DNA of 64,000 nt from Escherichia phage vB_EcoM_KWBSE43-6. Each line of letters opens with the position of its first letter. Position 1 is the stretch's first letter. Made by a program: the position numbers and the translations under genes. The notes under the pieces were generated by a model. It saw only the letters and a list, made by a program, of their open reading frames with translations. It was not told the DNA's origin and made no database searches. Below are positions 1-36,354 of the stretch, piece after piece. Where the stretch lies: sequence record NC_048186.1; one strand, 5' to 3'.

Positions 1-2
1 TG

Positions 3-854: not shown

Positions 855-862
855 ATCTTAAA

Positions 863-901
863 CTAAATACCCCTAGACGATTACATGTGCTAGGGGTATT
901 T
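863..901 (+). promoter_or_regulatory. late-promoter-like CTAAATA box inside a 12-bp perfect palindrome abutting the start codon
   Basis: CTAAATA 863-869; arms AAATACCCCTAG 865-876 and CTAGGGGTATTT 890-901, 13-nt loop; ATG at 906. Confidence 0.5.
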
Positions 902-905
902 TCAA

Positions 906-3900
906 ATGGCTAATAAACCCACGAAACCAAATTTTCCGCTTGGGCTTGAATCACAAGATCAATCCGTATTTCAAGAAGGTATTCTGAATAATGGTGTTGT
1001 AGAACATGGCCCAGATGCGGTAATGACTGTGCCAGAAACTCCTGACGCATCTGGGGTTCCTTCTGCTGTCCGTTATAACGAAGATGACGACCAGTTTGAA
1101 GGCTATTACAACGAAGGCGGTTGGTTGCCGCTTGGGGGTGGTAACGGTGGGCGCTGGGAACTCCTTCCGCATGCCCCCTCTTCCTTGTTACAGCTCGGTC
1201 GTGCATATCTGGTGGATAACACTGACGGTGCCTCTACGGTGGTTTTCCCTCCCCCTAAACGGGTTGGTGATAGCATCACTGTGTGTGACCTTTTTGGTAA
1301 ATTCTCAACTTATCCTCTGACTGTTGACGGTAACGGTAAATCGATCTATGGCTCTGCGGATAGCATGACGATTTCTACCGATAACGTCAGCGCGACGTTT
1401 ACGTGGACTGGTGAATCCCGTGGCTGGGTTATTACATCAGGCGTCGGTCTGGGACAAGGCCGGGTTTATAGTCGCGAAATTTACAGCCAAATTCTGTCAG
1501 CGACAACACCATCTATTACCCTGAGCACTCAACCATCTATTGTAGATGTGTATGTTGACGGAAAACGTTTGAAAGAATCCCTGTATACTCTCGACGGGTA
1601 TGAAGTTAAATTCGATCCGGCGCTGGCCTCTGGTTCTGATGTGCAGATTATTCAGTACATCCCAATTCAGCTCGGCGCGGGCGGTGGGGGTTCTGGTGGA
1701 ACTGTAATCACCTGGGAATACAACGGCGGCTCAGCTATCGGCGGAGAAACCCAAATCGTGTTGGATGTGGTCGTGGACTCAGTATCTGAGATCTACATCC
1801 GTGGTTCCCGTCAACAGATAGGGCGCGGGTTCACATTTGATCCTGCCACCAGTACGATTACCTTGGCGGATGAACTGGATGCCGGGGATGACGTTGTCGT
1901 CGTTATCAACGGTGACCCAACGGTCTACAACCAAATAGATCGCACTCCTTGGGAAGTTGCTCGGGCGTTTAACGTCTCAAATAACAGCGTCATTATGAGC
2001 AATGACAGGAATACTACCCTTGACGGGAAAACGATAGTATACGATATTAACAGTCAAAACTCTTGGGAAATTCCTGCTGGTATTCCTGTTGGCGCTAAAA
2101 TATCAAGTGTTTCTTCAGGGATTCTTGTGTACACCCCTGGTAACGTCAGTGTCACATTGACATTGTTGACGACGGGTACTACTGTTCTGAAACGCCTCGC
2201 CAATAGCAATTCTGGTAACGGCGGTGATATGGTTCTTTACAAAGCATCTTCAAATGCTGTGGAAAGAGCTATTTCTATGGCGTTGAAAGATTTTGTAAAC
2301 CTCCATGATTATTATCTGTCTTCTGATAACGGAGATTGGTATCCTGCATTTAACAGGGCTTTCCAAGATTCCCAAAATATTTTAGTTCCTTATGGTTCTC
2401 ATGTTGTCAAAACCACGGTTGTTCCACCATCCAATTCAAAAATAATTGGTCTTGGGGAAGCCAGTATCGTTAAATCACCAGATGCGATTGACGCCGCCGC
2501 CACAAACCTCGTTACCGTGTTTCGGGCTACTGGTTCAGATAATATATTGATTTCTGATATTACAATAGATGGTGGTGTTAACGAAGTCAACACCGCCAAA
2601 TCCTTTACACGAACTGTAAGGTTCATTAATTGTACCAACGTGTCGTTGCTGAGGGTTCGAGTATTAAACAACGCGGATTGGTCGACATCGTTCGAAGGCG
2701 GTCATGACTTTACGGTGAAGAATTATTACCAAAGATCGTATCGTTATCAGAACACTGCTATCAATTTGAATGGTGGACGTGATGGCCTACATTTCATGGA
2801 TTGTTATAATGTGAATGCAGACGGCCTTGACATAGAATCTGGTGATGATTGCGTGGGTATCACCACTACTGGTACAGATCTTGAAAATATCACGATTCGT
2901 AACCTGTGGGGTTCATCCAATATTGCTTCTCTCGTTATTTTTAACGAAGAAAAAGATTCTAACGATGTGTACTATTCAGCTAATGTCACTGGATTGAATA
3001 TTAGTGGTATCAGGATCAAGAAAGGCGGCAACGCTCGAAATATCGTCAGGGTTATAGGATACGGTGCCAACACCCAAATCAAAGATGTTTCAATCTTGGA
3101 TGTAAGGGGAAAAGCCTTTAACTCTTATGGTATTTGGGTGCAAGGTAGCGTTGACCATCCAGTAGACACAGTACACATAAGCAATTCAGACGTTGGTTCA
3201 CAACAGGCCCACGGCGTTCTGTTGCAGAATATAAAACGTTTGTCCGGTAACGTCTATGGTTATTATGAGGGTGTGAATTCTTCCGCTTCATTTGTTGGTG
3301 TGAACATGGTTTCGATCACTGGTGCGATGTTCACTCCAGGTTCTAGAAGTTCTTACGGGTATGGTGTACAAGTTCTGACCAGTAAAGATATCGTGCTGAC
3401 ACCTGATATCGAAAGTTGCGGCGCTGGGTTGTTCAGCTCTGCTTCTGGGGGTAATTTACGAATAGTAAACTGTGATGGTGTAACCATACCTTATGGCCGT
3501 GCCGTCGGGGACGTGGCTGTCAGCTATTGGGGTATCAACTTCGGTGGAAATACAAATTTAGACGTGGGTCTGGAATTCGTGTTTGGTGGGTTTACCAACT
3601 CGTCTCTCCCGAACTCTTATTATTTAAAAGCCCCAGCAGTTGATATCAAATGGAAAGAAGCGTCTGACGGGACTGTGACTATGAGTATCGCTCGTGGCGC
3701 CAGTATAGTCAGAAACAGCCAAGGCAATTTTACAATAACGTTCAACAATGATATGCGCAGTACATTGTTTTCTTGGCAGGCGACCGCCTATCACAATGGC
3801 GCGTTACGTTTAGTTCGTCTTGCTTCTGCTGTGGGGACTAAAACGATGACGATACAAGTAACGGATACGGCAAATGCCGCGACGTTCGCTGATTTTATAG

Positions 3901-3935
3901 AATTGAAAGCGTTTAACACTGCTACAGGATCTTAA
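906..3935 (+). CDS. tail spike protein, 1009 aa (TSP4-like), pectate-lyase-type beta-helix
   Basis: ATG 906; beta-helix signatures (NNADWSTSFEGGHDF, GRDGLHFMDCYNVNADGLDIESGDDCVGITTTG); N-terminal Ig-like modules as in gp10-like attachment domains; late-promoter hairpin upstream. Confidence 0.75.
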   Translation: MANKPTKPNFPLGLESQDQSVFQEGILNNGVVEHGPDAVMTVPETPDASGVPSAVRYNEDDDQFEGYYNEGGWLPLGGGNGGRWELLPHAPSSLLQLGRAYLVDNTDGASTVVFPPPKRVGDSITVCDLFGKFSTYPLTVDGNGKSIYGSADSMTISTDNVSATFTWTGESRGWVITSGVGLGQGRVYSREIYSQILSATTPSITLSTQPSIVDVYVDGKRLKESLYTLDGYEVKFDPALASGSDVQIIQYIPIQLGAGGGGSGGTVITWEYNGGSAIGGETQIVLDVVVDSVSEIYIRGSRQQIGRGFTFDPATSTITLADELDAGDDVVVVINGDPTVYNQIDRTPWEVARAFNVSNNSVIMSNDRNTTLDGKTIVYDINSQNSWEIPAGIPVGAKISSVSSGILVYTPGNVSVTLTLLTTGTTVLKRLANSNSGNGGDMVLYKASSNAVERAISMALKDFVNLHDYYLSSDNGDWYPAFNRAFQDSQNILVPYGSHVVKTTVVPPSNSKIIGLGEASIVKSPDAIDAAATNLVTVFRATGSDNILISDITIDGGVNEVNTAKSFTRTVRFINCTNVSLLRVRVLNNADWSTSFEGGHDFTVKNYYQRSYRYQNTAINLNGGRDGLHFMDCYNVNADGLDIESGDDCVGITTTGTDLENITIRNLWGSSNIASLVIFNEEKDSNDVYYSANVTGLNISGIRIKKGGNARNIVRVIGYGANTQIKDVSILDVRGKAFNSYGIWVQGSVDHPVDTVHISNSDVGSQQAHGVLLQNIKRLSGNVYGYYEGVNSSASFVGVNMVSITGAMFTPGSRSSYGYGVQVLTSKDIVLTPDIESCGAGLFSSASGGNLRIVNCDGVTIPYGRAVGDVAVSYWGINFGGNTNLDVGLEFVFGGFTNSSLPNSYYLKAPAVDIKWKEASDGTVTMSIARGASIVRNSQGNFTITFNNDMRSTLFSWQATAYHNGALRLVRLASAVGTKTMTIQVTDTANAATFADFIELKAFNTATGS

Positions 3936-3936
3936 C

Positions 3937-4173
3937 ATGAATATAAATTGTGTTTTTGTGAAAGACGAAATTCCCCTTGAGAAACAAGATGACTTTTTGA
4001 AATTATTTTTGGAAAGAATATCATTGGAATTCTCTGATGTCGTGATAACGGCAGAATGGGGAGACGATGAAACTGCTGTCGTTTCAGAGGATTGTTCTGA
4101 TTACGTCAAAGCAAATTATCAAAGATTTGTAGACGGTCTTAAACAAGACCTCATTATTTTCGATTATTTCTAA
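3937..4173 (+). CDS. hypothetical protein, 78 aa, acidic
   Basis: ATG 3937 two nt after upstream stop; AT-rich small ORF between tail-spike genes. Confidence 0.5.
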   Translation: MNINCVFVKDEIPLEKQDDFLKLFLERISLEFSDVVITAEWGDDETAVVSEDCSDYVKANYQRFVDGLKQDLIIFDYF

Positions 4174-4174
4174 A

Positions 4175-4212
4175 CTAAATACCCCATATTGGTAACGCCT
4201 TATGGGGTATTT
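4175..4212 (+). promoter_or_regulatory. late-promoter-like CTAAATA box inside a 12-bp perfect palindrome abutting the start codon
   Basis: CTAAATA 4175-4181; arms AAATACCCCATA 4177-4188 and TATGGGGTATTT 4201-4212; ATG at 4216. Confidence 0.5.
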
Positions 4213-4215
4213 CAA

Positions 4216-6795
4216 ATGGCCAGAAACATAGAAGAAATTTTCGGTGGGGTAGTCGTAGCACCACACCAGATCCCGTTCACGTACACTTCAACAAACGGTG
4301 GGGAAACTTTTATATCTCTGCCATTTTATCCCATCACCGGGTTCGTTACTATCAACGGTGGTGTACAGGTCCCTCTTGACAATTTCGAAATAGACGGAAA
4401 CACATTAAATCTTGGTCGAGAACTGGATCCAAGTGATGTTGTGTTCTGTTTGTTCGATAAAATCATGTCACCTCAAGATGCCAGTAACAACGCAGTTCGA
4501 GTTTATAAATTCATCTCTGTTGGAGGAGAAACGGAATTCACTCCAGATTTTACGGCGTATGGTGTCCAATCTCTTTATATCAATGGGAAATACCAAATAG
4601 CTGGTGAGGATTACACATATTCTAAGACAGATGGGAAAGTTTCTTTTACTACCCCATTAGTTACTGGAGTATGGGTTGCAGCTGAGATGAACATAAAGCA
4701 AAATATCCCCGCTTTAGCTGGCAATAATGGCGCATCACAAATCGGAACAGAATCAGGGCAAAATGTTCAATTAGAACTCGATTCATTCCGTAATTTGTTC
4801 GGGGAATATGGGTTTAGCATGATAGGGCAAACCACATATCAAGGATTGAGGAATTATAACGGCAATTCCAATTATATGATGATATATGGTAGATCCTATC
4901 TTCTAGATGGTGGTCATGGTATATTTGATTTAGTTCCTGGCGGTAATGCCATGACAACCCCTGACGATGATTGTGTGCATATTCGAGATACGTTGGGGCG
5001 GTTATGGCGTCGTAGATTTGAAGACAATGTCATAAGAATGAGCTGGGCGGGTGCTAAAAACCAATTAGAAACATCATCACCACAAGATGATGCTTTCAGG
5101 AACTGCCTGCTTGCGGCCAAATCGTTGTCTCCTACTGGTTATCCACAATCAATCATTAAAGGATTAGACCGTGGTGTAGTTTATCTTGCAGAGCGGCATT
5201 ATATCCGTTGTGGTAATTTCCCTGAATATATGGCGTGGAAATTGCCACCTACTGGTGGTGGTGACCGTTTTGGGCTGGATCTGCTGTGTGCATTGGGAGA
5301 AGGGGCGGGGTTCTTTATCGTCCAAGCTAATAACCCATTGTTGCGCGTCCGGGTAGACAACACTGGTATCCCATTCAATGTTTCGAATTATACTGATGCC
5401 CAACTTGTGAGTATAGTTGAGAACAATTATATCTTACGTTTGGAATCAATGGTGAACGCTCCGGAATTCGACGTTCATCCAGGTAATTATCCCGGTACTG
5501 TTCTTTACAGCACGGGTAAAAAGGATTATTCTGCAGTAACTGCACAATGGCCTGATTTGGTCCAAGTCTTACCGTCTATACAGAACGTCGGTAACGCGGT
5601 GTTTAACATAAAAAACTGTGGTCGAGATTTTATGTTAACCAATACTGGGGCTGGGTTGGGTCATTTTCATTCCGTTTGGTCACAAAATAACCGACTCCCT
5701 GGTTATATATCGAACTGCTATGATTTAACGATGACATATGAAGATTATGTCCCACACAACGAAACATCTGGTGGATTGATATTTAGTGAATGTGGCACTC
5801 TTTCTTTAGAAAATATTTTGATTGGCGCAGGTGGGGTAGGACATTTGTGTATATGGGATTGCCGTAACGTCCATATGAACCGTCATATCTCTATATGTGG
5901 TAATACCACTTGGGCTGCATCTAACCAAGTAGATGATCTTTATGCTTTAGAAATTTGTAACTCCGAAGTTCATATGAGCGGCGTGCATGCTCAAAACTCT
6001 GGTAAATTCGCACGTGTAGGATTCAATTCACAATTAACGGTTGATCACCTTACTGCATGGGATGTTTCAAAATTATTCTTGATGACGAATGATTTGACTA
6101 AATTGAAATATCGTGGGCAGCGGCAGGCTGTTACAGGGGACCCGAGCCGGATTTATGTGACATCAGGATTCGCTCAAAACCTTAACGCATCTCAGTTCGG
6201 TTGGGCTTGTGCTCCTGTAATAGAAATCGACAGCACAGTTAACGGTGATTTCAAATTTTATTGGAATTGCTGGACCAATAACGTTCATGCAGGGTATGGA
6301 TCTGAATCTGAAGCAAATCTTGCTATTATTAGCGTGGCTTCTACAAGTTCTACAGGATCTGTGTCATTCGGCGAAGACGCTAAATTGGAAGGTAATACGA
6401 CGAACTACGTCCTTCGTCTTGCAAACAAAAACCAATTGGGGAAAGTGCGCACTCGTCAAACATCTTTCTGTCGTGTACGTTATACCAATGACAACTCACA
6501 GTCATCTTTTGCAATGCGCGAAGCTGCTCATGACAATGGAACTACTGTGATCCCTATTGACGGAACAACATACAGCTATCCGTACCGCAGACCTGCTAAA
6601 TATTTCGTATCTTTAAACGTCCCTGCTGGTGGTGGTTCATGCTCAGTGACATTAAACGGTATGACGATTTTCCAAACTACGGTAGTCGGGACACATGGTA
6701 TAGTTATTGAAATGAAATACCAAGAAACCGTCGTGTTTACGTCATCCAACGTTACTGTATCGAATGCGCAGTGGCGTTATATTTTGGAGGAATAA
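4216..6795 (+). CDS. tail spike protein, 859 aa (TSP2-like), beta-helix
   Basis: ATG 4216 (track start 4189 is TTG inside the hairpin); same upstream architecture and tttcaaATGGC start context as 906 gene; beta-helix-like repeats in C-terminal half. Confidence 0.7.
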   Translation: MARNIEEIFGGVVVAPHQIPFTYTSTNGGETFISLPFYPITGFVTINGGVQVPLDNFEIDGNTLNLGRELDPSDVVFCLFDKIMSPQDASNNAVRVYKFISVGGETEFTPDFTAYGVQSLYINGKYQIAGEDYTYSKTDGKVSFTTPLVTGVWVAAEMNIKQNIPALAGNNGASQIGTESGQNVQLELDSFRNLFGEYGFSMIGQTTYQGLRNYNGNSNYMMIYGRSYLLDGGHGIFDLVPGGNAMTTPDDDCVHIRDTLGRLWRRRFEDNVIRMSWAGAKNQLETSSPQDDAFRNCLLAAKSLSPTGYPQSIIKGLDRGVVYLAERHYIRCGNFPEYMAWKLPPTGGGDRFGLDLLCALGEGAGFFIVQANNPLLRVRVDNTGIPFNVSNYTDAQLVSIVENNYILRLESMVNAPEFDVHPGNYPGTVLYSTGKKDYSAVTAQWPDLVQVLPSIQNVGNAVFNIKNCGRDFMLTNTGAGLGHFHSVWSQNNRLPGYISNCYDLTMTYEDYVPHNETSGGLIFSECGTLSLENILIGAGGVGHLCIWDCRNVHMNRHISICGNTTWAASNQVDDLYALEICNSEVHMSGVHAQNSGKFARVGFNSQLTVDHLTAWDVSKLFLMTNDLTKLKYRGQRQAVTGDPSRIYVTSGFAQNLNASQFGWACAPVIEIDSTVNGDFKFYWNCWTNNVHAGYGSESEANLAIISVASTSSTGSVSFGEDAKLEGNTTNYVLRLANKNQLGKVRTRQTSFCRVRYTNDNSQSSFAMREAAHDNGTTVIPIDGTTYSYPYRRPAKYFVSLNVPAGGGSCSVTLNGMTIFQTTVVGTHGIVIEMKYQETVVFTSSNVTVSNAQWRYILEE

Positions 6796-6797
6796 TA

Positions 6798-7097
6798 ATG
6801 ATTAAAGCAATCAAAGGGGATTTCACTGCTGTAACTTCAGTAGGAGAAATTTCATATCAATACGCTACTGTCCAGACTTTTCGGGGAGATGCAACGAGCG
6901 TGACCGTAGATGTATTTCTTTCCGATCGCTGGATTATCCAACGGGACGGGATCAATGTGGTAGATGATACTGCGCCTGGATTTTTCAAATCTGTACAGTT
7001 TGCTCCTGATTGGCAGAGCAGTTTGAATATCATAGATCAGGCTTATGAATATTTGAAAAGTCTTCCAGAGTTTTCAAATTCTACTGATGTTGTATAA
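6798..7097 (+). CDS. hypothetical protein, 99 aa
   Basis: ATG 6798 with GGAGG 8 nt upstream; overlaps end of preceding tail-spike gene. Confidence 0.5.
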   Translation: MIKAIKGDFTAVTSVGEISYQYATVQTFRGDATSVTVDVFLSDRWIIQRDGINVVDDTAPGFFKSVQFAPDWQSSLNIIDQAYEYLKSLPEFSNSTDVV

Positions 7098-7130
7098 AGT
7101 TAAGGGGGCTAGACCCCCTTAACTTATTTT
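7097..7130. terminator. bidirectional rho-independent terminator
   Basis: 12-bp perfect stem AAGTTAAGGGGG / CCCCCTTAACTT, loop ctaga, T-tract after; A-tract before serves the minus strand. Confidence 0.6.
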
Positions 7131-7372
7131 TCTATTTGTACAACAATCCCGTTTTCTTTTAAAACAGCTTCCAATTGCTCAATATGTAGCCTTAAATTTG
7201 AGTAGACGGTCGCTGCGATCAAAATTTCTTCACTTAATTTAACAGGTGAGTGAAGTGCGTCTATGTTAAAATTTCCTCCTGACGCAATAACTTTTCCATC
7301 TTCGTTAAATGTGTAGATGCAAGGATCTGGTTTATTTTTCTTAATCTTTATCAGTATTTCTTGTTTCCCCAT
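7124..7372 (-). CDS. hypothetical protein, 82 aa, opposite orientation inside tail-spike cluster
   Basis: ATG (minus) at 7370-7372 with GGAGA 9 nt upstream; stop lies in bidirectional terminator. Confidence 0.45.
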   Translation of the reverse strand: MGKQEILIKIKKNKPDPCIYTFNEDGKVIASGGNFNIDALHSPVKLSEEILIAATVYSNLRLHIEQLEAVLKENGIVVQIEK

Positions 7373-7442
7373 GATACATATCTCCAGCTGACTATGATTT
7401 GTACAAACATTGTACCCGAAACCGTTCGTTTGGAATAATACA

Positions 7443-7449
7443 CTAAATA
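7443..7449 (+). promoter_or_regulatory. late-promoter-like box CTAAATA
   Basis: CACTAAATACAAG 39 nt upstream of ATG 7488; same 13-mer context upstream of 9822 gene. Confidence 0.4.
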
Positions 7450-7487
7450 CAAGAATCAAGCCACAGAAAAACAACAGGAGATTCATC

Positions 7488-9491
7488 ATGAATCCGCAAT
7501 TTAGTCAGCCCGGTGGTTCCGTCTCTAAAGACGTGAACAAACAATCTATCGCACGTGTATTCTCTAAGAAAAAGAGTGATATATCATATTTGAAAGTTGG
7601 TTCTAGCGTTAATGGTTATGCTGTGCTATTCGAGCCGACAACCCAAACGTGTTGGTTTAGAGGGACTGCAACAGGTAATACAGTTTCTTGGACTATCAAC
7701 AATGATATCATGACTTTAGTGACTTCGGGTGGTTCCTTCACTCTGAACAAAGCCCAAGTTTGGGATTCTGTTACACTTTCCGGTGGAAATGCGACGAGTT
7801 TGATCGGAACACCTTCTGGTGGAACGTTAGCTAATCTGTTATTACGGACTGTGTCTCCTGCTGAATTCGGATTAGAAAACGATCCAACAGGAGTCAAAGC
7901 AGATAAAAATACCATGGCTGTTCAAAAGGCTATTCGTTACCTGAATTCTTTGGGTGGTGGACGTCTCTTGTTCCCTACTGGGCAATACACATTTTGCTAT
8001 GGAATTTGGTTGTTTGACAACATTCTGATCGATCTGAACGGTAGCATCTGTACTTTCAAAAACGCAACTTTTCCATTACGCAGTCGGGCATGTTTTGTTA
8101 TGGGTTCTTCTTATGAAGTCAACCGTGACAAGGCTATGAGTTTTTATGATGACGGCACCTACATCAACAACCCAAACCCGACCAATACAGCATATGTGAA
8201 TTTGCCGTTGGGAACGTTTTTGCGTGACAATGTCAATAAAGCGGAAATCAAAAACGCGCATATAATGAATGGGCATATCAAAGCCACGTTTGATTCCCCT
8301 ACTGCAAACGGTGCTTATGCAATAAATATGGCAAATGCGATGTATTGCACAGCACATGATTTATTCTTTACTGGATTCACAGAAGCCATAAACATGGGTT
8401 CGGATACTGGTTCTGAAACTCCGTCTTGCCATGGTTGTCTGGCTCATGATCTTTATATCGTTCAGCCTGACCAAAATAAAACTTATTATTCAATTGGTTT
8501 TATTTCAAACTCCACCAACTGTTCCATTCAACGGGCGATACAATATCTGCCTTGCGCCGCCGGGACAGAGAACGGGTCGGGTGTGGCTACTAACGTCGTT
8601 GAAGATTGTATTATAGAGGACATATTCATACCTTCTTTGGGTATTACGCAATCTTCTGAAGGGGTTCTTTTAAACAACGCAAAAGGATGTGTTGTGAGGA
8701 ACATTTGTGTCCGAAACTGTAAAGTGGTGGTGGCTGTTTATTATGTCAGCACCAGCTATATCAGTGCTGACAAATGGAATCATATTTCTGGCATAACTGG
8801 CCAAGGCACAGTTGCATTGATCGCAGTGCGCGGAAAATATACCACATTTACCGGATTCGCTGCGGATTCAACGACGCCGTATGAAATATATTTCGGGACT
8901 ACAAACGGATCTAACAACCGTATTGAACAAGAACCGGCTAGTATGTATTTCACAGAGACATCAACGGTCAAACAATATTGGTATTGCAATAACAACTACA
9001 TCAAAGGATGGGTCGTCAAATATCTGTATTTGCGGCCAATGAATACACTGGTGAATGACAAATCTGTTGCATTCAACTGGAACATGAACAAATCCGTGTC
9101 AGCCAACGATGACACCACGTTGTATTTCTTATGGGAAGTTCCTCCGTCCGTGAAGGCTATAAAGGCGGTCAAACTTTTCGCATATTACAATACCAACGCA
9201 GTGGCTAAAGGAAGTAATATCAAAATAGAAGTTCGTAGGATGATAGCGTTTGATGGTAACGCTAACACGTTGCCGTACATAGAACCTGCCATTGGTGCAA
9301 CTTCTACAGCAACGGTGGATCAACAGAATATAGCCATGAGCGCGGTTCATTCCGATACGGTTAGTCCCGGCATGGTAGTAACTGGCGATACTACGAATGG
9401 CCTGTCGAATAGTGTTGACATTTTGGTTACGTTTGCCAACACGTCCAAAAACTCTTTAATGAAAGAAATGGAAATTACATACCTGGGGTGA
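7488..9491 (+). CDS. tail spike protein, 667 aa, conserved N-terminal anchor module
   Basis: ATG 7488; N-terminus MNPQFSQPGGSVSKDVNKQSIARVF... shared with 9822 gene and resembling Ackermannviridae tail-spike N-termini; beta-helix-like C-terminal region. Confidence 0.75.
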   Translation: MNPQFSQPGGSVSKDVNKQSIARVFSKKKSDISYLKVGSSVNGYAVLFEPTTQTCWFRGTATGNTVSWTINNDIMTLVTSGGSFTLNKAQVWDSVTLSGGNATSLIGTPSGGTLANLLLRTVSPAEFGLENDPTGVKADKNTMAVQKAIRYLNSLGGGRLLFPTGQYTFCYGIWLFDNILIDLNGSICTFKNATFPLRSRACFVMGSSYEVNRDKAMSFYDDGTYINNPNPTNTAYVNLPLGTFLRDNVNKAEIKNAHIMNGHIKATFDSPTANGAYAINMANAMYCTAHDLFFTGFTEAINMGSDTGSETPSCHGCLAHDLYIVQPDQNKTYYSIGFISNSTNCSIQRAIQYLPCAAGTENGSGVATNVVEDCIIEDIFIPSLGITQSSEGVLLNNAKGCVVRNICVRNCKVVVAVYYVSTSYISADKWNHISGITGQGTVALIAVRGKYTTFTGFAADSTTPYEIYFGTTNGSNNRIEQEPASMYFTETSTVKQYWYCNNNYIKGWVVKYLYLRPMNTLVNDKSVAFNWNMNKSVSANDDTTLYFLWEVPPSVKAIKAVKLFAYYNTNAVAKGSNIKIEVRRMIAFDGNANTLPYIEPAIGATSTATVDQQNIAMSAVHSDTVSPGMVVTGDTTNGLSNSVDILVTFANTSKNSLMKEMEITYLG

Positions 9492-9494
9492 TTT

Positions 9495-9740
9495 ATGCAA
9501 AATTCGGCTATGCGTGATGCGTTATCTCTATTTTATGCTTTATACGACTATTTGGTAAACAAAGTGGAATTGACAGAAACAGAAGAATCTGTCAAATCTA
9601 AAATAGAACAAGATATGGGGATACGTTGTGATGATTCATTGGATGAGCAAATCCTACAACTGCAATCAGAACTAAACCAAGCAGTTGAAGAGGGAGAACG
9701 TCACCAAATCTTAGATAATGTGGTTGAACTTTTGAAATAA
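9495..9740 (+). CDS. hypothetical protein, 81 aa, acidic
   Basis: ATG 9495 four nt after upstream stop; terminator follows. Confidence 0.5.
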   Translation: MQNSAMRDALSLFYALYDYLVNKVELTETEESVKSKIEQDMGIRCDDSLDEQILQLQSELNQAVEEGERHQILDNVVELLK

Positions 9741-9742
9741 CA

Positions 9743-9767
9743 AAGCCCCTTCGGGGGCTTTTCTTTT
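9743..9767 (+). terminator. rho-independent terminator
   Basis: AAGCCCC ttcg GGGGCTT followed by TTCTTTT. Confidence 0.6.
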
Positions 9768-9774
9768 GAACAAA

Positions 9775-9781
9775 CTAAATA
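9775..9781 (+). promoter_or_regulatory. late-promoter-like box CTAAATA
   Basis: AACTAAATACAAGGAG 41 nt upstream of ATG 9822. Confidence 0.4.
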
Positions 9782-9821
9782 CAAGGAGACATTGTTAGAA
9801 AAACAACATGAGGAACCACCC

Positions 9822-12098
9822 ATGAAAACGCAATTTAACCAATCACAAGGCTCAACTTCACGTGAGACGAATAAAGAAGCGATTGCTCGCATCTTTGGTC
9901 TCAAGAAGTCTCAAGTCGGATATCTGTCAACAACCACTCCAATTGATTCGTATGTCATATTGTTTGACAAAGAAACTCAGACGTGTTGGTATCGAGGTAC
10001 AGCAACAGGTACTCCAATTTCTTGGAATGTCAATGGTGAATCATTATCTTTGACAACTAATTCTGGAACTTCTATATTAACTAAATCTAAACCATGGGAT
10101 GAATTGAATCAAAAACTATCATCACCACAAGGATTTGGTGCGATAGGCAAATTTTCTTCTTTGATTAATTTAAGAAATCATGAACCCACATACCCTGGCG
10201 AATCTGTGATTTTAGAAAGAATAGCGTCTGGGAAACCGACAGTTAACGTAGTGCTAAGGCATGATCCTACTGATACCACGTCTGTGGATGACGACATAAG
10301 CATATTTGTTACACCTGGTGGTGCTCGTTGGAAATTGGATATTAGTGATGGTTATGATATGAGACTGGCAGGGGTTAATGTTGATGGTACAAACTTTTCC
10401 TCTGCTTTAAATAAAATAGTCAGTGTCATTATTTCAAAAATAGTAGCTAATGGGCGGGTAAATAATGTTGCTCGTCGCATAAAAGTTGTCCCGACAAATT
10501 TTTTATGTCAATTCTTTTTAACTGATCCTGTTGATTTACCATCAATCGTGTCATGTTCTTTTTATGGGTCACCATTCATAGAATCACAAAACATGACGGG
10601 ACTCTATTCTTTCAGAATAGCCAACCAACCGTTCAGCACGTTGACCAAGGCTATGATGCAAGCAGAAACTTCGTGGCCTAATGGCCCGTTAAACCAAGTT
10701 ATCGGGAATAAAGTTATAAATTCAGGGGATGGCGGGAGAATAACTTTAAGGGGACCCGGATTTTCAGATGGTGTCCCAAGGATAGGTGTTATATTAGGTA
10801 ATGATGTGACCACAGATAAAGACGTGAGGGATTGTAGCGTAGAAGATATGAATATCTTCGGCTTCGACGCTTCTCATACGTTGGGTGGCTATTTTACCTT
10901 TATGGCAGGCTTCCGGAATTGTAACTTCTCGCGTTGTAATGTTGGTATGCGATTACCAAATATCACTGGAAACGCTGGGGAAAGAATGTGGTATGATTCT
11001 TGCACTTTTGGTAACATGACAAGCCATGCATTACACGTATTTGGGGCTGGTACGTATAGCTTGGTCAACACTTCCATAGACTTCATAGGCGGGGATATGT
11101 TCCATTATGGATCTGATTCTTCTGTGTCTATAGAATTTATTTCAGGCCATATAGAAGGTATACAAGGGTATGATGCCGCGAAAGATACTCCGACGAACTA
11201 TTCTCAGGCCAGGGTTCATATCCATTCTGCCGTTCTGAGAGATCCGAGACAAGGAAGCGGCCAATACAGGGGTATAAGGCAACGTTGGTCTTGCCCTTCT
11301 TCTTCATTTGGGCAAGGACTTTCCGTAATAGACGAATCTATTTCCCCCGGAATGGAGAATACAAAACCGAACACTGCATATCCGTGCTTTATGGGTAGTC
11401 CAAGTAATACTGGTGTTTACATAGAAACCCCGCGAACTGCTAACCGGGGAACGCCGTGGTTGAACAGCTATAGTGATTCTTGTTCCAAGAGAATAAATCC
11501 GACATATTTCTTTATAACTTCGGCGGGTACTGGGGAGTTAGGTCAGAGTCAATTAGTGTTGGATTATAACTTTTCATACACCAAAACTGGGGATGGAATA
11601 GTAGAATATGGTGTAGTCGGTGACGCGGATGCAGATGGATTTATACCGTTCAAGATTACTTGTAATGATGTCAATACAGTCATTAATTTGTTCTGTAATA
11701 ACCGATCTAAAGCCACCAACGGAAACAAGCCTTTATGGGGAGCTTGCTCAGTTAAATTGGCGAATTCCGTGGGTGATGTCATGATCGCTCCACTTAGGGC
11801 AACATATTTAGGTTCTACTATCACGTCGATATATAATGACACCACGAAGACGGTAACAAGTACGTTAAATCCTGTTCTTCGTTCAACAAACGTGGGAGTT
11901 GCTCTTAACCTTAGAGATCTGTTGAACGGAAGCGGACTAACAACTAATGACTATCAGGCGACTTATCCTCGATATGTTACTGGTTACTACCAGGGCAATG
12001 ATTTCTTTGTCCCCGGTTTCCGCCTTTGGAATTTCACAGGAACCATATATTTGAAATTGCCTATTTGGTGGTTCGAAGGTGATAACTTTGGAGCATAA
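9822..12098 (+). CDS. tail spike protein, 758 aa, conserved N-terminal anchor module
   Basis: ATG 9822 (GAGGA 8 nt upstream); N-terminus MKTQFNQSQGSTSRETNKEAIARIFG... homologous to 7488 gene; divergent C-terminal receptor-binding/depolymerase region. Confidence 0.75.
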   Translation: MKTQFNQSQGSTSRETNKEAIARIFGLKKSQVGYLSTTTPIDSYVILFDKETQTCWYRGTATGTPISWNVNGESLSLTTNSGTSILTKSKPWDELNQKLSSPQGFGAIGKFSSLINLRNHEPTYPGESVILERIASGKPTVNVVLRHDPTDTTSVDDDISIFVTPGGARWKLDISDGYDMRLAGVNVDGTNFSSALNKIVSVIISKIVANGRVNNVARRIKVVPTNFLCQFFLTDPVDLPSIVSCSFYGSPFIESQNMTGLYSFRIANQPFSTLTKAMMQAETSWPNGPLNQVIGNKVINSGDGGRITLRGPGFSDGVPRIGVILGNDVTTDKDVRDCSVEDMNIFGFDASHTLGGYFTFMAGFRNCNFSRCNVGMRLPNITGNAGERMWYDSCTFGNMTSHALHVFGAGTYSLVNTSIDFIGGDMFHYGSDSSVSIEFISGHIEGIQGYDAAKDTPTNYSQARVHIHSAVLRDPRQGSGQYRGIRQRWSCPSSSFGQGLSVIDESISPGMENTKPNTAYPCFMGSPSNTGVYIETPRTANRGTPWLNSYSDSCSKRINPTYFFITSAGTGELGQSQLVLDYNFSYTKTGDGIVEYGVVGDADADGFIPFKITCNDVNTVINLFCNNRSKATNGNKPLWGACSVKLANSVGDVMIAPLRATYLGSTITSIYNDTTKTVTSTLNPVLRSTNVGVALNLRDLLNGSGLTTNDYQATYPRYVTGYYQGNDFFVPGFRLWNFTGTIYLKLPIWWFEGDNFGA

Positions 12099-12099
12099 T

Positions 12100-12354
12100 A
12101 TGTATACCATACATAAAATTCCTTGTGACATAGTCTACAATTCTTTGTTAGAGCATCATAAGTTTTTCATATCTTTAAAGAAAGATTTGGCAAAGCGTAT
12201 TAAGAATTCTACGTCAGGATTCAAATATGAAAATTTCAAATTTTGTTATGACAAAGATGATGTAAATCAATATTATCTAAAATTAGATTCAAAATGTCGT
12301 GACTTTGAAACCCAATTAAACGAAATTTGGTTTCATTCAGTACACCAACAATGA
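12100..12354 (+). CDS. hypothetical protein, 84 aa
   Basis: ATG 12100 immediately after tail-spike stop; AT-rich. Confidence 0.45.
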   Translation: MYTIHKIPCDIVYNSLLEHHKFFISLKKDLAKRIKNSTSGFKYENFKFCYDKDDVNQYYLKLDSKCRDFETQLNEIWFHSVHQQ

Positions 12355-12364
12355 GGATTATGGT

Positions 12365-12625
12365 ATGAAATTTAGTATAATTGAAACAGAAGTTAACCCA
12401 GGTTCTGAACTAAGGAATTTCTTAGTCGTTCCTGCAGGAAGTGAAAAAGAAACCGAAGACAATTGGATTCTTTCTTTCAAACATGATTCTGTCGATACTT
12501 TGCAAGAAACCGCTTCTCGTTATCTCATCGCATTCGGTGTCTTGTCCTCGTTGTCACTCAGTTTAGACAACACTGCTATTGTTGAATTGGTGAAAACTTT
12601 AGATAACACTTCAGTTTCAAGTTGA
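12365..12625 (+). CDS. hypothetical protein, 86 aa
   Basis: ATG 12365 with GAGGA 7 nt upstream; terminator follows. Confidence 0.5.
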   Translation: MKFSIIETEVNPGSELRNFLVVPAGSEKETEDNWILSFKHDSVDTLQETASRYLIAFGVLSSLSLSLDNTAIVELVKTLDNTSVSS

Positions 12626-12632
12626 TGCAATT

Positions 12633-12656
12633 AGCCCCCTCGGGGGCTTTATTCTT
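12633..12656 (+). terminator. rho-independent terminator
   Basis: AGCCCCC tc GGGGGCT followed by TTATTCTT. Confidence 0.6.
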
Positions 12657-12679
12657 CATACGATGGGTTGTGTGGTATA

Positions 12680-12686
12680 CTAAATA
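12680..12686 (+). promoter_or_regulatory. late-promoter-like box CTAAATA
   Basis: TACTAAATAATTCC about 35 nt upstream of ATG 12721. Confidence 0.4.
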
Positions 12687-12720
12687 ATTCCAAGACAAAA
12701 CTCTATAGATGGAGTACAAA

Positions 12721-15700
12721 ATGCAACAATTGAATCTTAACCGCCGCCCTTATTGGGACGACTGGAATCCAGAGAAGCGTTTCAGCCGCATCCTGTTCCG
12801 CCCAAATCCAATCAAAGTACAGACTCGTGAGCTGAACCAGCTGCAGACTATCCTACAGGATCAAATTGAGAAGATCGGTAATCATCTTTTCAAAGACGGT
12901 TCCATGGTAATCCCAGGCGGTTTGACTATTACCAATTCGGCTGTATCCATGAAGTTCCAGCTGGCGGGTGGGAGCGAATTCACCGACCTGGAAGGCATTC
13001 AAGAACTGTACGTGATTGGCAAAGACAACAACGCCAAGGCCCGTGTATTGTCTCTGGAACGCTACACCAGCGAACCGGATATGATGTTCTGTATCCTGGA
13101 AATGACCGAGTCCGGCACTGCCGATGGATTCAGCCCGAACGATAATCTATACTTCAACACTTATGATGTGAATGATAACTTCATCCGTATCGGTTATGGT
13201 GTTGCACAGACTGTCGGTGGCTCTATTGTTGCTCGGATGACCAAAGGCGTCTATTTCGTTCGTGGGTTCTTCCTCGACGTTGACGATGATATGTTGGTTG
13301 TCAACAAATATGCAAATAACACCAGCCATCGCGTCGGGTTCAAAGTTACTGAAGAAATCGTGACTGAAGAGCAAGATAGTAGTCTGTTCTCCAATGCCCA
13401 GGGTACACCGAACACCAAAGCGCCGGGCGCTCATCGCCTTCGTTTGGATCTGAGTCTTCAGGCGTTTGATTATGACGCAGAAGTCGAAGATTTCGTTGAG
13501 CTGGCGAAGATCAAAGACGGTAAAATCCAGTCTATGGTCACCCAATCGACGTACAATATCCTCGAAGACACTATGGCCCAGCGCACCTATGAGCAAGCTG
13601 GTGACTACAACGTGTCTACTCACCAGATCGACCTTCGCGAACACCTGAAAGAAAACAACAATGGTGGGGTATATACTCCGGCCGAAGGTGGCGATGAAAG
13701 CAAACTGGTTGCGGTAATGAAGCCGGGCATTTCTTATGTCCGTGGTCGTCGTATTGAGAACGTCGGGGAAGAACTCGTCGTCATTGATAAGGCGCGTGAT
13801 ACAGACCTCCTGAACAACACGCCAGTTGCTGTAGCGACAGGTAATTTCCTGACGACCAAGAACTCTAAAGGTGTTCCTGTTATCAGCCGTAGTATTCGCT
13901 ACAAATTGCTGAATGCTTCTGGTGTTACCCAAGCGACTGCCCTGTGTATCTCCGCCGACCGTACCGGGACGGAATTCCGTCTGTATATGCGTGACCTGGT
14001 CGTCACTGGTGATATGAGCACGGTCACCAAAGTCGCTTACGAAGAAAGCGGGACCACGATGTTCTCGGCAGCGTTGGAAACTAATCAGTTCTCACAAAGT
14101 TCATCTATGGATCTCATATTTGAACTGCCTGTCTTTGGCGTGAAAACTTTGGCTCCGACCGGAACGATTGATATCAACTACACCGTCTTGCGTTCTTACA
14201 AAATTACGCTGGATGCGTCAGGTAACGGTTCTATATCTGCACCGCTGGGATACAGTTTTTCTCCGGAATTCTCACTCTACTCCGGAGCGAAATCTGACGG
14301 AACCGCCGCCCAGATCGATATCTCCAGCAGCCTGTCTCTGACCGGGACACCAGTTGGGTCGGCTCTGCAGATTTCCCTCGGTTCCGGTAATGCTCTGCAA
14401 TCTATCAACCTGTTGGCGCTGATGGTACGCACCACTGCTATCATCAAAACCAAAACTGTTACGACTGCTACTGAGACTGTGATCTTCACCAACCAGGCCA
14501 GCATCCAGCTTGCGAACCATGACGGCTACAAATTGACTTCCGTCAAAAATGCCAATGGTGCTGACGTGACCTCTAACTTCACTCTGGATGGCGGGCAGCG
14601 TGATGCGGCGTACTACAAGTCCAGTCTGATATCGGCCACTGGAGCCATTTCAGGCGCGTATACCGTGGAATACACGTATTTCGCTCACAGTACTGGTGAC
14701 TTCTTTACCGCTGATTCGTATACTTCTATTGATTACAAATCAATCCCGAATTATACGTCGAGCACGTCGGGTACAGTGTATGGTCTGGCCGACAGTATAG
14801 ACTTCCGCCCTAAAATCACCAATGGTGCGTCTGATACTGATATGGTGCGGCCTAACACGGCGATCATCATGGACGTTGAATATTATCTGCCTCGCATTGA
14901 TGCTGTGTACCTGGCAGACAACGGCGTTTTCAACGTTGCTCGTGGTATCAGTTCGAACAACCTGGCGGCTCCGGCTATTCCAGCAAACGCCATGCGTTTG
15001 TACGAACTGTTGATTCCCCCATATACTCCGGATATTGACGATATTCAGATCCGTACTATCGACAACCGCCGCTACACAATGCGGGATATCGGTAAGCTGG
15101 ACACCCGTATATCGAACGTCGAGTATTACACAACACTGTCTCAGCTGGAATCTTCGGCTATGACTCAGCAAGTATTCGACCCGGTAACAGGCAACCCACG
15201 TTACAAAAATGGTATCGCTGCTGATCCGTTCAAAGACTTTCGTCTGATTGATGATCTGTCTTCCGACTGGATGGGTTCCGTAGACACCGACAATGGTCGC
15301 CTGCGTCCGTTTGTACAACAAAACGCGATTGACCTGGTTCCGGATGGGTGGGACAAGGTTATGGACGGTATGGTCGTGTGCAAATACACACCGGAAATTT
15401 CTGTTAATCAGGAATATGCGACGACGACGATCAACGTCAACCCATATGCTGTGTTTAACTGGACGGGGTTCCTCAAACTCAATCCGACAACAGATTACTG
15501 GTTTGAAAACTACTACGTTGCCCCTCGTGTTATCAACGAGACGATCAATACCCGTGGTGCTGTCCAAGAAGGTACGGTTTATGGTACATGGCGGACTGTG
15601 TCTGTATCTGAGCGGGTATGGGAACCGCACGGCGCGGGCGGCGTATGGTGGGGATATCGTTATAGAACCACTGTGTCTACACGTGATGTTTCGACTTACA

Positions 15701-36162: not shown

Positions 36163-36185
36163 TTTGTTAACACTGGAGACGTCCC

Positions 36186-36353: not shown

Positions 36354-36354
36354 T

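What the first reader, a model, noticed from the sequence alone, without database searches (positions are those of the whole stretch)
906..12098. Four consecutive tail-spike genes with modular N-termini (host-range module)
Four large beta-helix proteins (1009, 859, 667 and 758 aa) are encoded in a row. The two smaller ones share an about 90-aa N-terminal anchor module but have unrelated C-terminal domains. The two larger ones have extended N-termini with Ig-like modules suited to binding the baseplate and carrying the smaller spikes. This matches a branched multi-spike adsorption apparatus with up to four depolymerase specificities. Small AT-rich ORFs between them could be assembly chaperones or recently acquired genes.
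Basis: partly seen in the sequence, partly recalled or inferred. Interest (0 to 1): 0.6.

Follow-up and report, generated by a model that had tools for sequence, protein, structure and literature searches.

The report
Four-tailspike host-range cluster of a Taipeivirus
This is the already-described four-tailspike "branched" host-recognition gene cluster of an Ackermannviridae phage (Escherichia phage KWBSE43-6), ordinary for that family, except that the small genes behind each spike travel with the spike body across unrelated phage families and may be unrecognised spike partner proteins.

Summary
Four + strand genes (906-3935, 4216-6795, 7488-9491, 9822-12098; 1009/859/667/758 aa) encode the TSP4, TSP2 and two short-spike proteins of the Ackermannviridae branched tailspike complex. 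The window is Escherichia phage vB_EcoM_KWBSE43-6 (genus Taipeivirus). TSP4 aa 1-339 matches the CBA120 TSP4 anchor/XD1-3 crystal structure (E 3e-141). TSP2 aa 1-177 matches CBA120 TSP2 (E 8e-73). The two short spikes share only a 95-aa head (44% identity). The four bodies are mutually unrelated and are swapped as cassettes with Klebsiella phages of five other families. Enzymatic fold is directly supported for TSP4 (GH28) and TSP3 (pectin-lyase cap; K57-depolymerase family). It is inferred for TSP1 (38% identical to the proven K56dep) and untested for TSP2. All of this is published biology (CBA120; the "Menlow group" model).

The less ordinary part is the small trailing ORFs. They are real genes (dN/dS 0.07-0.12), each preceded together with its spike by a CTAAATAC late-promoter-like motif, and three of the four units end in a hairpin. 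Three of them sit directly behind homologous spike bodies in sipho-, podo- and myoviruses (8/8 and 7/7 hits in the phage collection). One family has at least 1,830 clusters, with six sampled members behind 490-705-aa ORFs, five of them pectate-lyase-fold. Their function is unknown; a non-essential spike chaperone or cap is my best guess.

The parts
863..870 (+). CTAAATAC late-promoter-like motif, 43 nt before the TSP4 start
   Evidence: 7 copies on the + strand against 1.4 expected; four of them lie 41-47 nt upstream of the four spike ATGs. That this motif is the ViI-like late promoter is from my own knowledge, not tested here.
906..3935 (+). TSP4 (1009 aa). Aa 1-339 form the baseplate anchor domain plus gp10-like XD1-XD2-XD3. 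The block conserved across the genus runs to about aa 420. The body (aa ~421-1009, nt 2166-3935) is GH28-like.
   Evidence: 7REJ E 2.7e-141, aa 1-339; glycine linkers conserved. (Pfam GH28, aa 556-729). (7B8B polygalacturonase, 8e-4). (conserved to nt ~2100-2160 in all relatives). (body 99.7-99.8% aa identical to UPM 2146 and cp21).
3937..4173 (+). s78: 78-aa acidic trailing ORF whose start lies 1 nt after the TSP4 stop
   Evidence: found only in UPM 2146 and cp21, which carry the same TSP4 body. GC 0.333. No family hit.
4175..4182 (+). CTAAATAC motif, 41 nt before the TSP2 start
4216..6795 (+). TSP2 (859 aa). Aa 1-177 form the XD2-XD3 docking region. The body (aa ~180-859) has an unknown fold.
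   Evidence: 6W4Q E 8e-73, aa 1-177. (body 97.5% identical to Bullseye_ER20; 64-66% to spikes of Webervirus and other phages isolated on ATCC 700603 or a K53 strain). (no PDB or Pfam hit).
6798..7097 (+). s99: 99-aa trailing gene of family phrog_18037, with a conserved C-terminal motif QAYEYLKTLPEF
   Evidence: dN/dS 0.12. 7/7 tblastn hits directly 3' of TSP2-body homologs. 1,830 representative clusters. Six sampled members 4-27 nt behind 490-705-aa ORFs, five with Pect-lyase/Beta_helix hits. AF2 pLDDT 88, beta-meander plus helix. No known fold.
7097..7125 (+). 12-bp GC-rich hairpin followed by a T run; it closes the TSP2+s99 unit and, on the other strand, the antisense gene
7127..7372 (-). 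Antisense 82-aa gene (cassette cargo): the short form of the 121-aa ORF at 7124-7489
   Evidence: dN/dS 0.11 for aa 40-121 against 0.90 for aa 1-39, versus Bullseye. GGAGA 8 nt before M40 (sequence). Only homolog is in Bullseye_ER20.
7443..7450 (+). CTAAATAC motif, 45 nt before the slot-3 spike start
   Evidence: The conserved block starts at 7464.
7488..9491 (+). Slot-3 short spike (TSP3-like, 667 aa). The head is aa 1-~95. The body belongs to the pectin-lyase-fold, K57-depolymerase-related family.
   Evidence: 6NW9/5W6F 3.8e-8; 4OJ5; G7C gp63.1 4QNL. (colinear over 667 aa, 72% identity, no gaps, with the Gamaleyavirus K57alpha1.2 spike). (44% to JD001, 39% to ZX22). (7CHU 9e-7).
9495..9740 (+). 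s81: 81-aa acidic trailing gene of family phrog_19895, predicted four-helix bundle
   Evidence: dN/dS 0.067. 8/8 tblastn hits directly 3' of TSP3-body homologs. Also present in JD001 and ZX22 and in L011-L016. AF2 pLDDT 80.
9742..9761 (+). Hairpin terminator after s81 (palindromic, scored on both strands)
9775..9782 (+). CTAAATAC motif, 47 nt before the slot-4 spike start
9822..12098 (+). Slot-4 short spike (TSP1 by its position next to vriC; 758 aa). The head is aa 1-~95. The body is homologous to the proven K56 depolymerase of phage KN3-1.
   Evidence: 6NW9 2.8e-7, 4OJ5 3.7e-7. (69% to the phage S16a spike; 38.5% over 99% of the body to KN3-1 35635-37668 = K56dep, PMC6465236). (5W5P tail fiber 7e-8, N-terminal part of the body only).
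12100..12354 (+). s84: 84-aa orphan trailing ORF (91 aa if read from GTG 12079), GC 0.275
   Evidence: No homolog in any fetched locus. Whether it is a real gene is not established.
12365..12625 (+). s86: 86-aa second trailing ORF of the slot-4 cassette
   Evidence: 35% identical (E 3e-14 pairwise) to the second ORF behind the homologous spike of phage S16a. No hit at database scale.
12633..12648 (+). Hairpin terminator closing the slot-4 unit; the conserved genus backbone resumes here
12709..17559 (+). Context: conserved 1616-aa VriC-like protein (DUF4815), which bounds the tsp cluster and is treated by some authors as a fifth, conserved RBP
   Evidence: DUF4815, 8e-59. (92-97% nt identity in all relatives)..

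Best explanation
The region is the tsp gene cluster of a Taipeivirus (Ackermannviridae), specifically Escherichia phage vB_EcoM_KWBSE43-6. It builds one branched receptor-binding complex per baseplate site.

By homology to CBA120, trimeric TSP4 is fixed to the baseplate by its N-terminal anchor domain. Its gp10-like XD2 and XD3 domains dock TSP2 and one short spike. The XD region of TSP2 carries the other short spike. The heads are slot-specific: slot 3 begins MNPQFSQPGGSV and slot 4 begins MKTQFNQSQGSTSRETNK. Everything distal to the head is an exchangeable, mutually unrelated receptor-binding or polysaccharide-degrading body.

Each spike gene is preceded by a late-promoter-like motif. Three of the four units end in a hairpin with a T run: TSP2+s99, TSP3+s81 and TSP1+s84+s86. 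A weaker hairpin lies inside the 3' end of s78.

Host range evolves by recombination in the conserved head and promoter blocks. This moves a whole cassette (body + trailing small gene(s) + hairpin) between slots, between Taipeiviruses, and to or from sipho-, podo- and other myoviruses of Klebsiella.

Shown here: the homology of all docking modules, the mosaic structure, the linkage and purifying selection of the trailing genes, and GH28 and pectin-lyase signatures for two bodies. Inferred: the physical assembly, the enzymatic activity of each body, and the receptors (Klebsiella-type capsules such as K53-like and K57-like). Also inferred is that the trailing proteins act on their own spike, most likely as a non-essential folding helper or transient cap.
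For: Identity of the phage: s99 is 100% identical to HOV43_gp212 of KWBSE43-6; BFVD entries of that phage, 100% identity.

Docking modules: TSP4 aa 1-339 against 7REJ, E 2.7e-141, linkers conserved; TSP2 aa 1-177 against 6W4Q, E 8e-73; short-spike heads against CBA120 TSP3/TSP1 and G7C gp63.1; heads 44% identical, the rest unrelated. Assembly rules come from PMC8825819. Synteny baseplate - tsp - vriC.

Mosaic structure: (conserved blocks 1-~2100, 4165-4750, 7464-7677, 9739-10025 and 12633 onward; everything between varies). Slot swapping: (the same body plus s81 sits in slot 4 with a slot-4 head in L011/L012).

Cross-family bodies. The bodies are unrelated to each other.

Enzyme evidence; K56dep; K57 depolymerases and the JD001 family.

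Transcription units.

Trailing genes.
Against: No experiment on this phage shows the complex, the activity of any spike, or a capsule receptor. The published host range is one E. coli strain and 0 of 19 Klebsiella strains.

The TSP2 and TSP1 bodies gave no fold signal, so 'four enzymes' is not established.

The assignment of the two short spikes to TSP1 versus TSP3 is ambiguous by sequence (32.2 against 31.8 bits). The gene order (4-2-3-1) differs from the consecutive ORF210-213 of CBA120.

For the trailing genes: the families are structurally unrelated to each other (beta-meander against four-helix bundle) and resemble no known chaperone. Homologous bodies exist without them (KpLz-2_45, KLPPOU149, KN3-1, KpV48). 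Many Klebsiella depolymerases, including K56dep and the two K57 enzymes, were produced in active form alone.
Confidence: 0.88

Rival explanations
1. The small trailing ORFs are passive passengers. They are carried along only because recombination breakpoints lie in the conserved head and promoter of the next gene, and they have no functional tie to the spike. They could be morons or anti-defence genes.
For: They lie inside the variable cassettes bounded by conserved blocks. They are AT-rich and heterogeneous in fold and family. s78 and s84 have no relatives outside near-identical cassettes. Some homologous bodies lack them. Depolymerases fold without them.
Against: The pairing survives in phages whose flanks are entirely different: Webervirus, Gamaleyavirus, Jedunavirus, Drulisvirus and freshwater P22-like contigs. 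In 50,697 phage genomes, every detectable s81 hit (8/8) and s99 hit (7/7) is directly 3' of the homologous body. Six sampled s99-family members sit 4-27 nt behind 490-705-aa ORFs, five of them pectate-lyase-fold proteins not detectably similar to the TSP2 body. Selection is purifying (dN/dS 0.07-0.12). Stop-to-start gaps are 1-4 nt, and the ORFs sit between a late-promoter-like motif and a hairpin together with the spike.
Confidence: 0.3
2. Not all four spikes are depolymerases. One or more, especially TSP2, whose body has no detectable fold or family, is a non-enzymatic binder or has a different activity such as deacetylase/esterase. The phage would then have fewer than four degradative specificities.
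For: There is no Pfam, NCBIfam or PDB signal for the TSP2 or TSP1 bodies, even with profiles. Non-depolymerase RBPs mounted on the same N-terminal chassis are reported in Taipeivirus. The recorded host range is narrow.
Against: The TSP1 body is 38.5% identical over its full length to K56dep, which releases reducing ends from K56 capsule. TSP2-body homologs are the single spike of siphoviruses isolated on the same strains, ATCC 700603 and a K53 reference. This is the usual position of a capsule depolymerase.
Confidence: 0.3
3. The four spikes attach independently to separate baseplate sites rather than forming one branched complex.
For: There is no structural data for any Taipeivirus. TSP3 binding in CBA120 needed a pre-formed TSP4:TSP2 complex, so details may differ between genera.
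Against: Only TSP4 carries the anchor domain. TSP2 starts directly with XD2-XD3. The short spikes carry only the ~95-aa head, which in CBA120 and G7C binds XD3 domains. About 70% identity to the CBA120 modules makes a different assembly unlikely.
Confidence: 0.05

Closest known systems
CBA120 (Kuttervirus) TSP1-4 branched receptor-binding complex (Plattner 2019; Chao 2022, PMC8825819; PDB 7REJ, 6W4Q, 6NW9, 4OJ5)
   Same: TSP4 has the AD-XD1-XD2-XD3 region (aa 1-339, E 1e-141), TSP2 has the XD2-XD3 region (aa 1-177, E 8e-73), and there are two short spikes with ~95-aa heads. The cluster lies between the baseplate genes and vriC, and the distal bodies are unrelated to each other.
   Different: The gene order is TSP4-TSP2-short-short rather than consecutive ORF210-213 (TSP1-2-3-4). 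The bodies resemble Klebsiella capsule-depolymerase families rather than O-antigen glycosidases. One or two small genes follow every spike here, whereas the consecutive ORF numbering in CBA120 leaves no room for annotated genes between the spikes (abstract).
'Menlow group' RBP system of Klebsiella Taipeiviruses (Latka et al. 2019, PMC6872550)
   Same: This is the same genus and the same architecture: four non-conserved RBPs with conserved N-termini of about 412, 195, 38 and 67 aa, plus a conserved large fifth protein. That paper noted the intervening 'hypothetical proteins not present in all phages'.
   Different: This phage was isolated on E. coli and has its own set of four bodies: TSP4 = UPM 2146 type, TSP2 = Bullseye type, and TSP3 and TSP1 not matched in the Taipeivirus genomes compared at nucleotide level. 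It lacks the extra spike gene of KpS110.
G7C gp66/gp63.1 two-spike complex and Klebsiella Gamaleyavirus spikes (PDB 4QNL)
   Same: The short-spike head is homologous to that of gp63.1. The whole 667-aa slot-3 spike, head included, is colinear with a Gamaleyavirus K57alpha1.2 spike and has the same trailing gene.
   Different: That system is a podovirus with two spikes instead of four.
RBP plus cognate downstream chaperone modules shared between distant phage families (Alteromonas phages A5/V22, PMC10579305; classical Tfa and gp38 fibre chaperones)
   Same: A small gene directly 3' of the RBP gene moves together with it between morphologically unrelated phages. Chaperone dependence can be dispensable in some pairs, as would be required here.
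   Different: Those partners serve fibres, not beta-helix spikes. The window's trailing proteins show no sequence or fold similarity to them or to intramolecular chaperone domains.

Membership tests
Ackermannviridae branched TSP complex (CBA120 type) | TSP4 with an N-terminal anchor domain followed by gp10-like XD1, XD2 and XD3 | tested here: met
   aa 1-339 against 7REJ/7RFO, E 2.7e-141, with near-complete colinearity including the GGGG, GLGQGRVYSR and glycine-rich XD2-XD3 linkers.
Ackermannviridae branched TSP complex (CBA120 type) | TSP2 beginning with the XD2-XD3 docking region | tested here: met
   aa 1-177 against 6W4Q aa 1-176, E 8e-73.
Ackermannviridae branched TSP complex (CBA120 type) | Short spikes with the TSP1/TSP3-type N-terminal head | tested here: met
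   6NW9, 5W6F, 4OJ5 and 4QNL at E 4e-8 to 1e-5 over aa 1-65/91. Which spike is TSP1 and which is TSP3 is not resolved by score.
Ackermannviridae branched TSP complex (CBA120 type) | Cluster located between the baseplate-wedge genes and vriC | tested here: met
   annotated relatives that are syntenic with the window; DUF4815 protein at 12709-17559.
Ackermannviridae branched TSP complex (CBA120 type) | Physical assembly of the four trimers into one complex on the baseplate | not testable with these tools
   Inferred from about 70% identity of the docking modules to CBA120 proteins whose interactions were measured.
Ackermannviridae branched TSP complex (CBA120 type) | Each spike degrades or binds a distinct surface polysaccharide | tested here: inconclusive
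   The bodies are mutually unrelated. A GH28 signature was found for TSP4 and a pectin-lyase cap for TSP3. The TSP1 body is homologous to the proven K56dep. Nothing was found for TSP2.
Glycoside hydrolase family 28 (TSP4 body) | Match to the GH28 profile above the curated threshold | tested here: met
   27.8-30.6 bits against a cutoff of 22.9, covering profile positions 78-244 of 324.
Glycoside hydrolase family 28 (TSP4 body) | Conserved catalytic Asp residues in the GH28 active-site motifs | not tested
   Invariant D206, D227 and D228 in the 4-sequence alignment A7 are candidates, but they were not mapped onto a GH28 structure.
Dedicated RBP chaperone (Tfa / gp38 / Alteromonas A5-V22 type) for the trailing ORFs | Gene immediately 3' of the RBP gene and co-inherited with it | tested here: met
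   for s99 and s81; for s86. Not met for s78 and s84, which have no relatives.
Dedicated RBP chaperone (Tfa / gp38 / Alteromonas A5-V22 type) for the trailing ORFs | Sequence or fold similarity to a known chaperone family or intramolecular chaperone domain | tested here: not met
Dedicated RBP chaperone (Tfa / gp38 / Alteromonas A5-V22 type) for the trailing ORFs | Required for, or improves, folding or trimerisation of the cognate RBP | not testable with these tools
   Indirect evidence against strict requirement: related depolymerases were produced in active form alone, and homologous bodies exist without the partner.

The most novel reading that the evidence does not exclude
The small genes directly behind tailspike genes are not filler. 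They are dedicated partner proteins of pectate-lyase-fold spikes. In particular, the phrog_18037 family (s99) has at least 1,830 clusters at 50% identity, members of 74-119 aa, a confidently predicted fold without a known structural relative, and an invariant C-terminal helix motif QAYEYLKTLPEF. It would be a widespread, unrecognised spike accessory (folding helper, transient cap or virion-bound adaptor). It moves with the spike body as one host-range cassette between myo-, sipho- and podoviruses from enterobacterial, gut and freshwater settings. s81 and s86 would be analogous partners of other body families.
Probability: 0.35. Interest if true: 0.6.

Novelty: already known. Interest (0 to 1): 0.3.

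Why it matters
As a tailspike cluster it adds little. The phage is published, and its genus architecture and the CBA120 mechanism are established. Its practical value is predictive. The four bodies point to testable receptors: a K53/ATCC 700603-type, a K57-related type, the UPM 2146/BAA-2146 type and an S16a type. They also pose a puzzle, namely why a phage carrying Klebsiella-type bodies was recovered on E. coli.

The trailing-gene linkage matters more. If these proteins assist or cap their spikes, then engineering host range by swapping only the spike body, as is now done in Ackermannviridae and Klebsiella phages, may be leaving out a needed component. A family with more than a thousand clusters would also gain a function.

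Tried and rejected
1. Profile searches of each spike body against PDB sequences. These were informative for TSP3 and TSP4. They found only a head-proximal match for TSP1 and nothing for TSP2.

2. hhalign between the four body profiles. No relationship was found, so there is no hidden common catalytic domain.

3. Pfam at E up to 5 and NCBIfam on the bodies and small ORFs. Only GH28 was found.

4. Structure prediction of the bodies was not possible.

5. I tested whether all trailing ORFs form one superfamily (shared 'beta strands + C-terminal helix ...EAEAALK' look). This was rejected: hmmsearch and hhalign between the s99 family and the UPM2146/Menlow/K5lambda5 family gave E 0.08-0.3, and s81 is all-helical.

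6. The 121-aa antisense ORF with a hydrophobic N-terminus was considered as a membrane protein. This was rejected: aa 1-39 evolve neutrally (dN/dS 0.90), and the real gene is the 82-aa form.

7. Tandem Repeats Finder on 1-13000 found nothing. The 24-aa repeats of the upstream tail protein are visible only at the protein level.

8. Sigma-70 promoter scan: no enrichment (30 found, 31.7 expected). The relevant signal is the CTAAATAC motif instead.

9. Exact-sequence look-ups of the window's TSP2 and of P0001 in the contig index failed.

10. tblastn of s86 found nothing at database scale. Its link to S16a rests on pairwise and small-set statistics.

Full report
**What is there**

The stretch 906-12098 holds four long + strand ORFs. 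Read from their ATG codons, they give proteins of exactly 1009, 859, 667 and 758 aa: 906-3935, 4216-6795, 7488-9491 and 9822-12098. Each is followed by one or two small ORFs:
- s78, 3937-4173
- s99, 6798-7097
- s81, 9495-9740
- s84, 12100-12354
- s86, 12365-12625

One further small ORF lies on the opposite strand (7124-7489). The small ORFs are AT-rich, with GC 0.275-0.40 against 0.457 for the window.

**Origin**

Nucleotide search puts the region in genus Taipeivirus (Ackermannviridae). The best matches are Klebsiella phages UPM 2146, cp21 and Bullseye_ER20, but no record covers more than 41% of the query. The s99 protein is 100% identical to HOV43_gp212 of Escherichia phage vB_EcoM_KWBSE43-6. 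The BFVD entries for that phage match both small-protein models at 100% identity. The window is therefore that phage. It was isolated on E. coli, lysed one strain of the E. coli panel, and lysed none of 19 Klebsiella strains (PMC6563267).

**Docking modules**

- The 1009-aa protein aligns over aa 1-339 with the crystal structure of the CBA120 TSP4 N-terminal fragment (7REJ, E 2.7e-141). The alignment includes the glycine linkers between the anchor domain, XD1, XD2 and XD3.
- The 859-aa protein aligns over aa 1-177 with CBA120 TSP2 (6W4Q, E 8e-73).
- The 667- and 758-aa proteins match only the first 65-91 residues of CBA120 TSP3 and TSP1 and of G7C gp63.1. They share 44% identity with each other over aa 1-95 and nothing beyond that.

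In CBA120, the anchor domain fixes TSP4 to the baseplate. TSP4-XD2 binds the XD2 of TSP2, TSP4-XD3 binds the TSP1 head, and TSP3 joins only the TSP4:TSP2 complex (PMC8825819). With about 70% identity in these modules, the same assembly is the natural inference here. The domains are gp10/gp9-like jellyrolls, not Ig folds.

The cluster sits between the baseplate genes and the conserved 1616-aa VriC-like DUF4815 protein, as in the rest of the family. The architecture was already modelled for the 'Menlow group' of Klebsiella phages, with conserved N-termini of about 412, 195, 38 and 67 aa (PMC6872550).

**Modularity**

BLASTN against six Taipeivirus loci gives a clean mosaic. The conserved blocks are 1-~2100, 4165-4750, 7464-7677, 9739-10025 and 12633 onward. 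Each conserved block covers the end of the preceding unit, a promoter region and the N-terminal module. Everything between these blocks is variable.

- The TSP4 body plus s78 is shared only with UPM 2146 and cp21 (99.7-99.8% aa identity).
- The TSP2 body plus s99 plus the antisense gene is shared only with Bullseye_ER20 (97.5% aa identity).
- The slot-3 and slot-4 bodies are not matched in the Taipeivirus genomes compared at nucleotide level.

Their best relatives are in other phage families:
- The slot-3 spike is colinear over all 667 aa, without a gap, with a spike of the N4-like Gamaleyavirus K57alpha1.2 (72% identity). It is 37-44% identical to spikes of Jedunavirus, Drulisvirus and Webervirus phages.
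- The slot-4 body is 69% identical to the phage S16a spike. It is 38.5% identical over its whole length to K56dep of KN3-1.

In the metagenomic contigs L011 and L012, the slot-3 body (84-91% identical over aa 201-667) sits in the last slot. There it carries a slot-4-type head: 67% identity to the window's slot-4 head against 58% to its slot-3 head. This shows directly that bodies move between slots while heads stay slot-specific. Profile-profile comparison finds no relationship among the four bodies.

**Are the bodies enzymes?**

- TSP4: Pfam GH28 above threshold and a polygalacturonase structure hit.
- TSP3: the start of the body matches the N-terminal cap region of pectin-lyase-fold enzymes and Sf6/P22-type tailspikes. 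Its relatives include the JD001 family, to which the experimentally active K57 beta-galactosidase Dep_kpv79 belongs.
- TSP1: homologous to K56dep, which releases reducing ends from K56 capsule. There is no fold signal of its own beyond a head-proximal match to 5W5P.
- TSP2: nothing was found in Pfam, NCBIfam or the PDB. Its homologs are the spikes of phages isolated on ATCC 700603 or a K53 reference strain.

'Up to four depolymerase specificities' is therefore plausible but not shown.

**Transcription units**

CTAAATAC occurs 7 times on the + strand against 1.4 expected. Four copies lie 41-47 nt before the four spike ATGs. That this motif corresponds to the late-promoter consensus of ViI-like phages is from my own knowledge.

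GC-rich hairpins with T runs follow s99 (7097-7125), s81 (9742-9761) and s86 (12633-12648). Stop-to-start gaps between spike and trailing ORF are 1-4 nt. The trailing genes therefore appear to be made late, from the same transcript as their spike.

**The trailing genes**

This is the one part that goes beyond the literature I could read. The Ackermannviridae and Klebsiella RBP papers mention only 'hypothetical proteins not present in all phages' and intramolecular chaperones.

*They are real genes.* dN/dS is 0.067 for s81 and 0.12 for s99.

*They stay with their spike body.* In 50,697 phage genomes, all 8 tblastn hits of s81 and all 7 hits of s99 lie directly 3' of the homolog of the cognate body. 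These are in Gamaleyavirus, Jedunavirus and Webervirus genomes, whose flanks are unrelated (compare the coordinates). phmmer adds a Drulisvirus member of the s81 family and a KX1 member of the s99 family. It also shows that s86 matches the second ORF behind the S16a spike.

*The s99 family is large.* A profile of the family finds 1,830 representative clusters at E <= 1e-3, and the listed best matches are 74-119 aa long. Six sampled members from freshwater, gut and other metagenomes each sit 4-27 nt behind a 490-705-aa ORF. Five of those ORFs carry Pect-lyase_RHGA_epim or Beta_helix hits, and the ORFs checked are not detectably similar to the TSP2 body.

*Evidence against an essential role.* The families are unrelated to each other. 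Some homologous bodies lack a partner. K56dep, the K57 enzymes and over a hundred other Klebsiella depolymerases were produced in active form alone.

*Closest precedent.* The Alteromonas A5/V22 fibre-plus-chaperone module is shared between distant families, and its chaperone dependence varies between pairs.

I therefore rate a spike-directed accessory role (helper or cap) as the most likely reading, at about 0.35 for a true dedicated partner. The 'passenger' alternative gets about 0.3. s78 and s84 remain unexplained orphans.

**Verdict**

Interest is low to moderate, and it rests on the trailing-gene linkage.

Noticed in passing
window 7127-7372 (- strand), inside ORF 7124-7489: There is an antisense 82-aa gene between the s99 terminator and the slot-3 promoter. 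Aa 40-121 of the 121-aa ORF are under purifying selection (dN/dS 0.11), while the hydrophobic first 39 aa evolve neutrally (0.90). GGAGA lies 8 nt before M40. The only homolog in 50,697 phage genomes is in Bullseye_ER20, which shares the TSP2 cassette. Its function is unknown.
   Followed up: partly
window 19193, 29452, 39551 (+ strand): Three further copies of the CTAAATAC motif lie outside the tsp cluster, presumably before other late genes. I did not examine what lies downstream of them.
   Followed up: no
window 12-854 (+), ORF running off the left edge: The C-terminal part of the tail protein upstream of TSP4 contains about 24-aa repeats (TYTxKMTSLDSQIxxLxxxKVD). The gene differs by exactly 72 nt (one repeat unit) between UPM 2146/Bullseye (1254 nt) and Menlow/KpS110/K5lambda5 (1326 nt). 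The window aligns without a gap to UPM 2146. TRF finds no repeat at the DNA level.
   Followed up: partly
window 12100-12354 (+): s84 has the lowest GC of the region (0.275) and no detectable homolog in any locus or library searched. It may be an orphan gene or may not be a gene at all. An alternative GTG start at 12079 overlaps the end of the slot-4 spike gene.
   Followed up: partly
L005 (KpS110) 11895-13559; L011 651-2273 and 2277-2910: Relatives vary in spike number and cargo. KpS110 has an extra 554-aa ORF between TSP4 and TSP2. Contig L011 has a 540-aa slot-3 spike followed by two small ORFs (117 and 89 aa). A separate trailing-ORF family (88-113 aa, C-terminal ...EEAEAALK) follows TSP1, TSP2 or TSP4 in UPM 2146, Menlow, K5lambda5 and L011.
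   Followed up: partly
L008 (vB_Kpl_K57alpha1.2, OY979416.1): The public annotation of this Gamaleyavirus record appears to be on the wrong strand across the spike region. 'RIIB lysis inhibitor' pseudogene features overlie what translates as a 667-aa spike plus an 80-aa trailing ORF on the other strand.
   Followed up: no
window 906-12098 against host data: A phage isolated on E. coli carries bodies 97-99.8% identical to those of phages grown on K. pneumoniae BAA-2146 and K. quasipneumoniae ATCC 700603, yet it lysed 0 of 19 Klebsiella strains tested. Which of the four spikes recognises the E. coli host is unknown.
   Followed up: no
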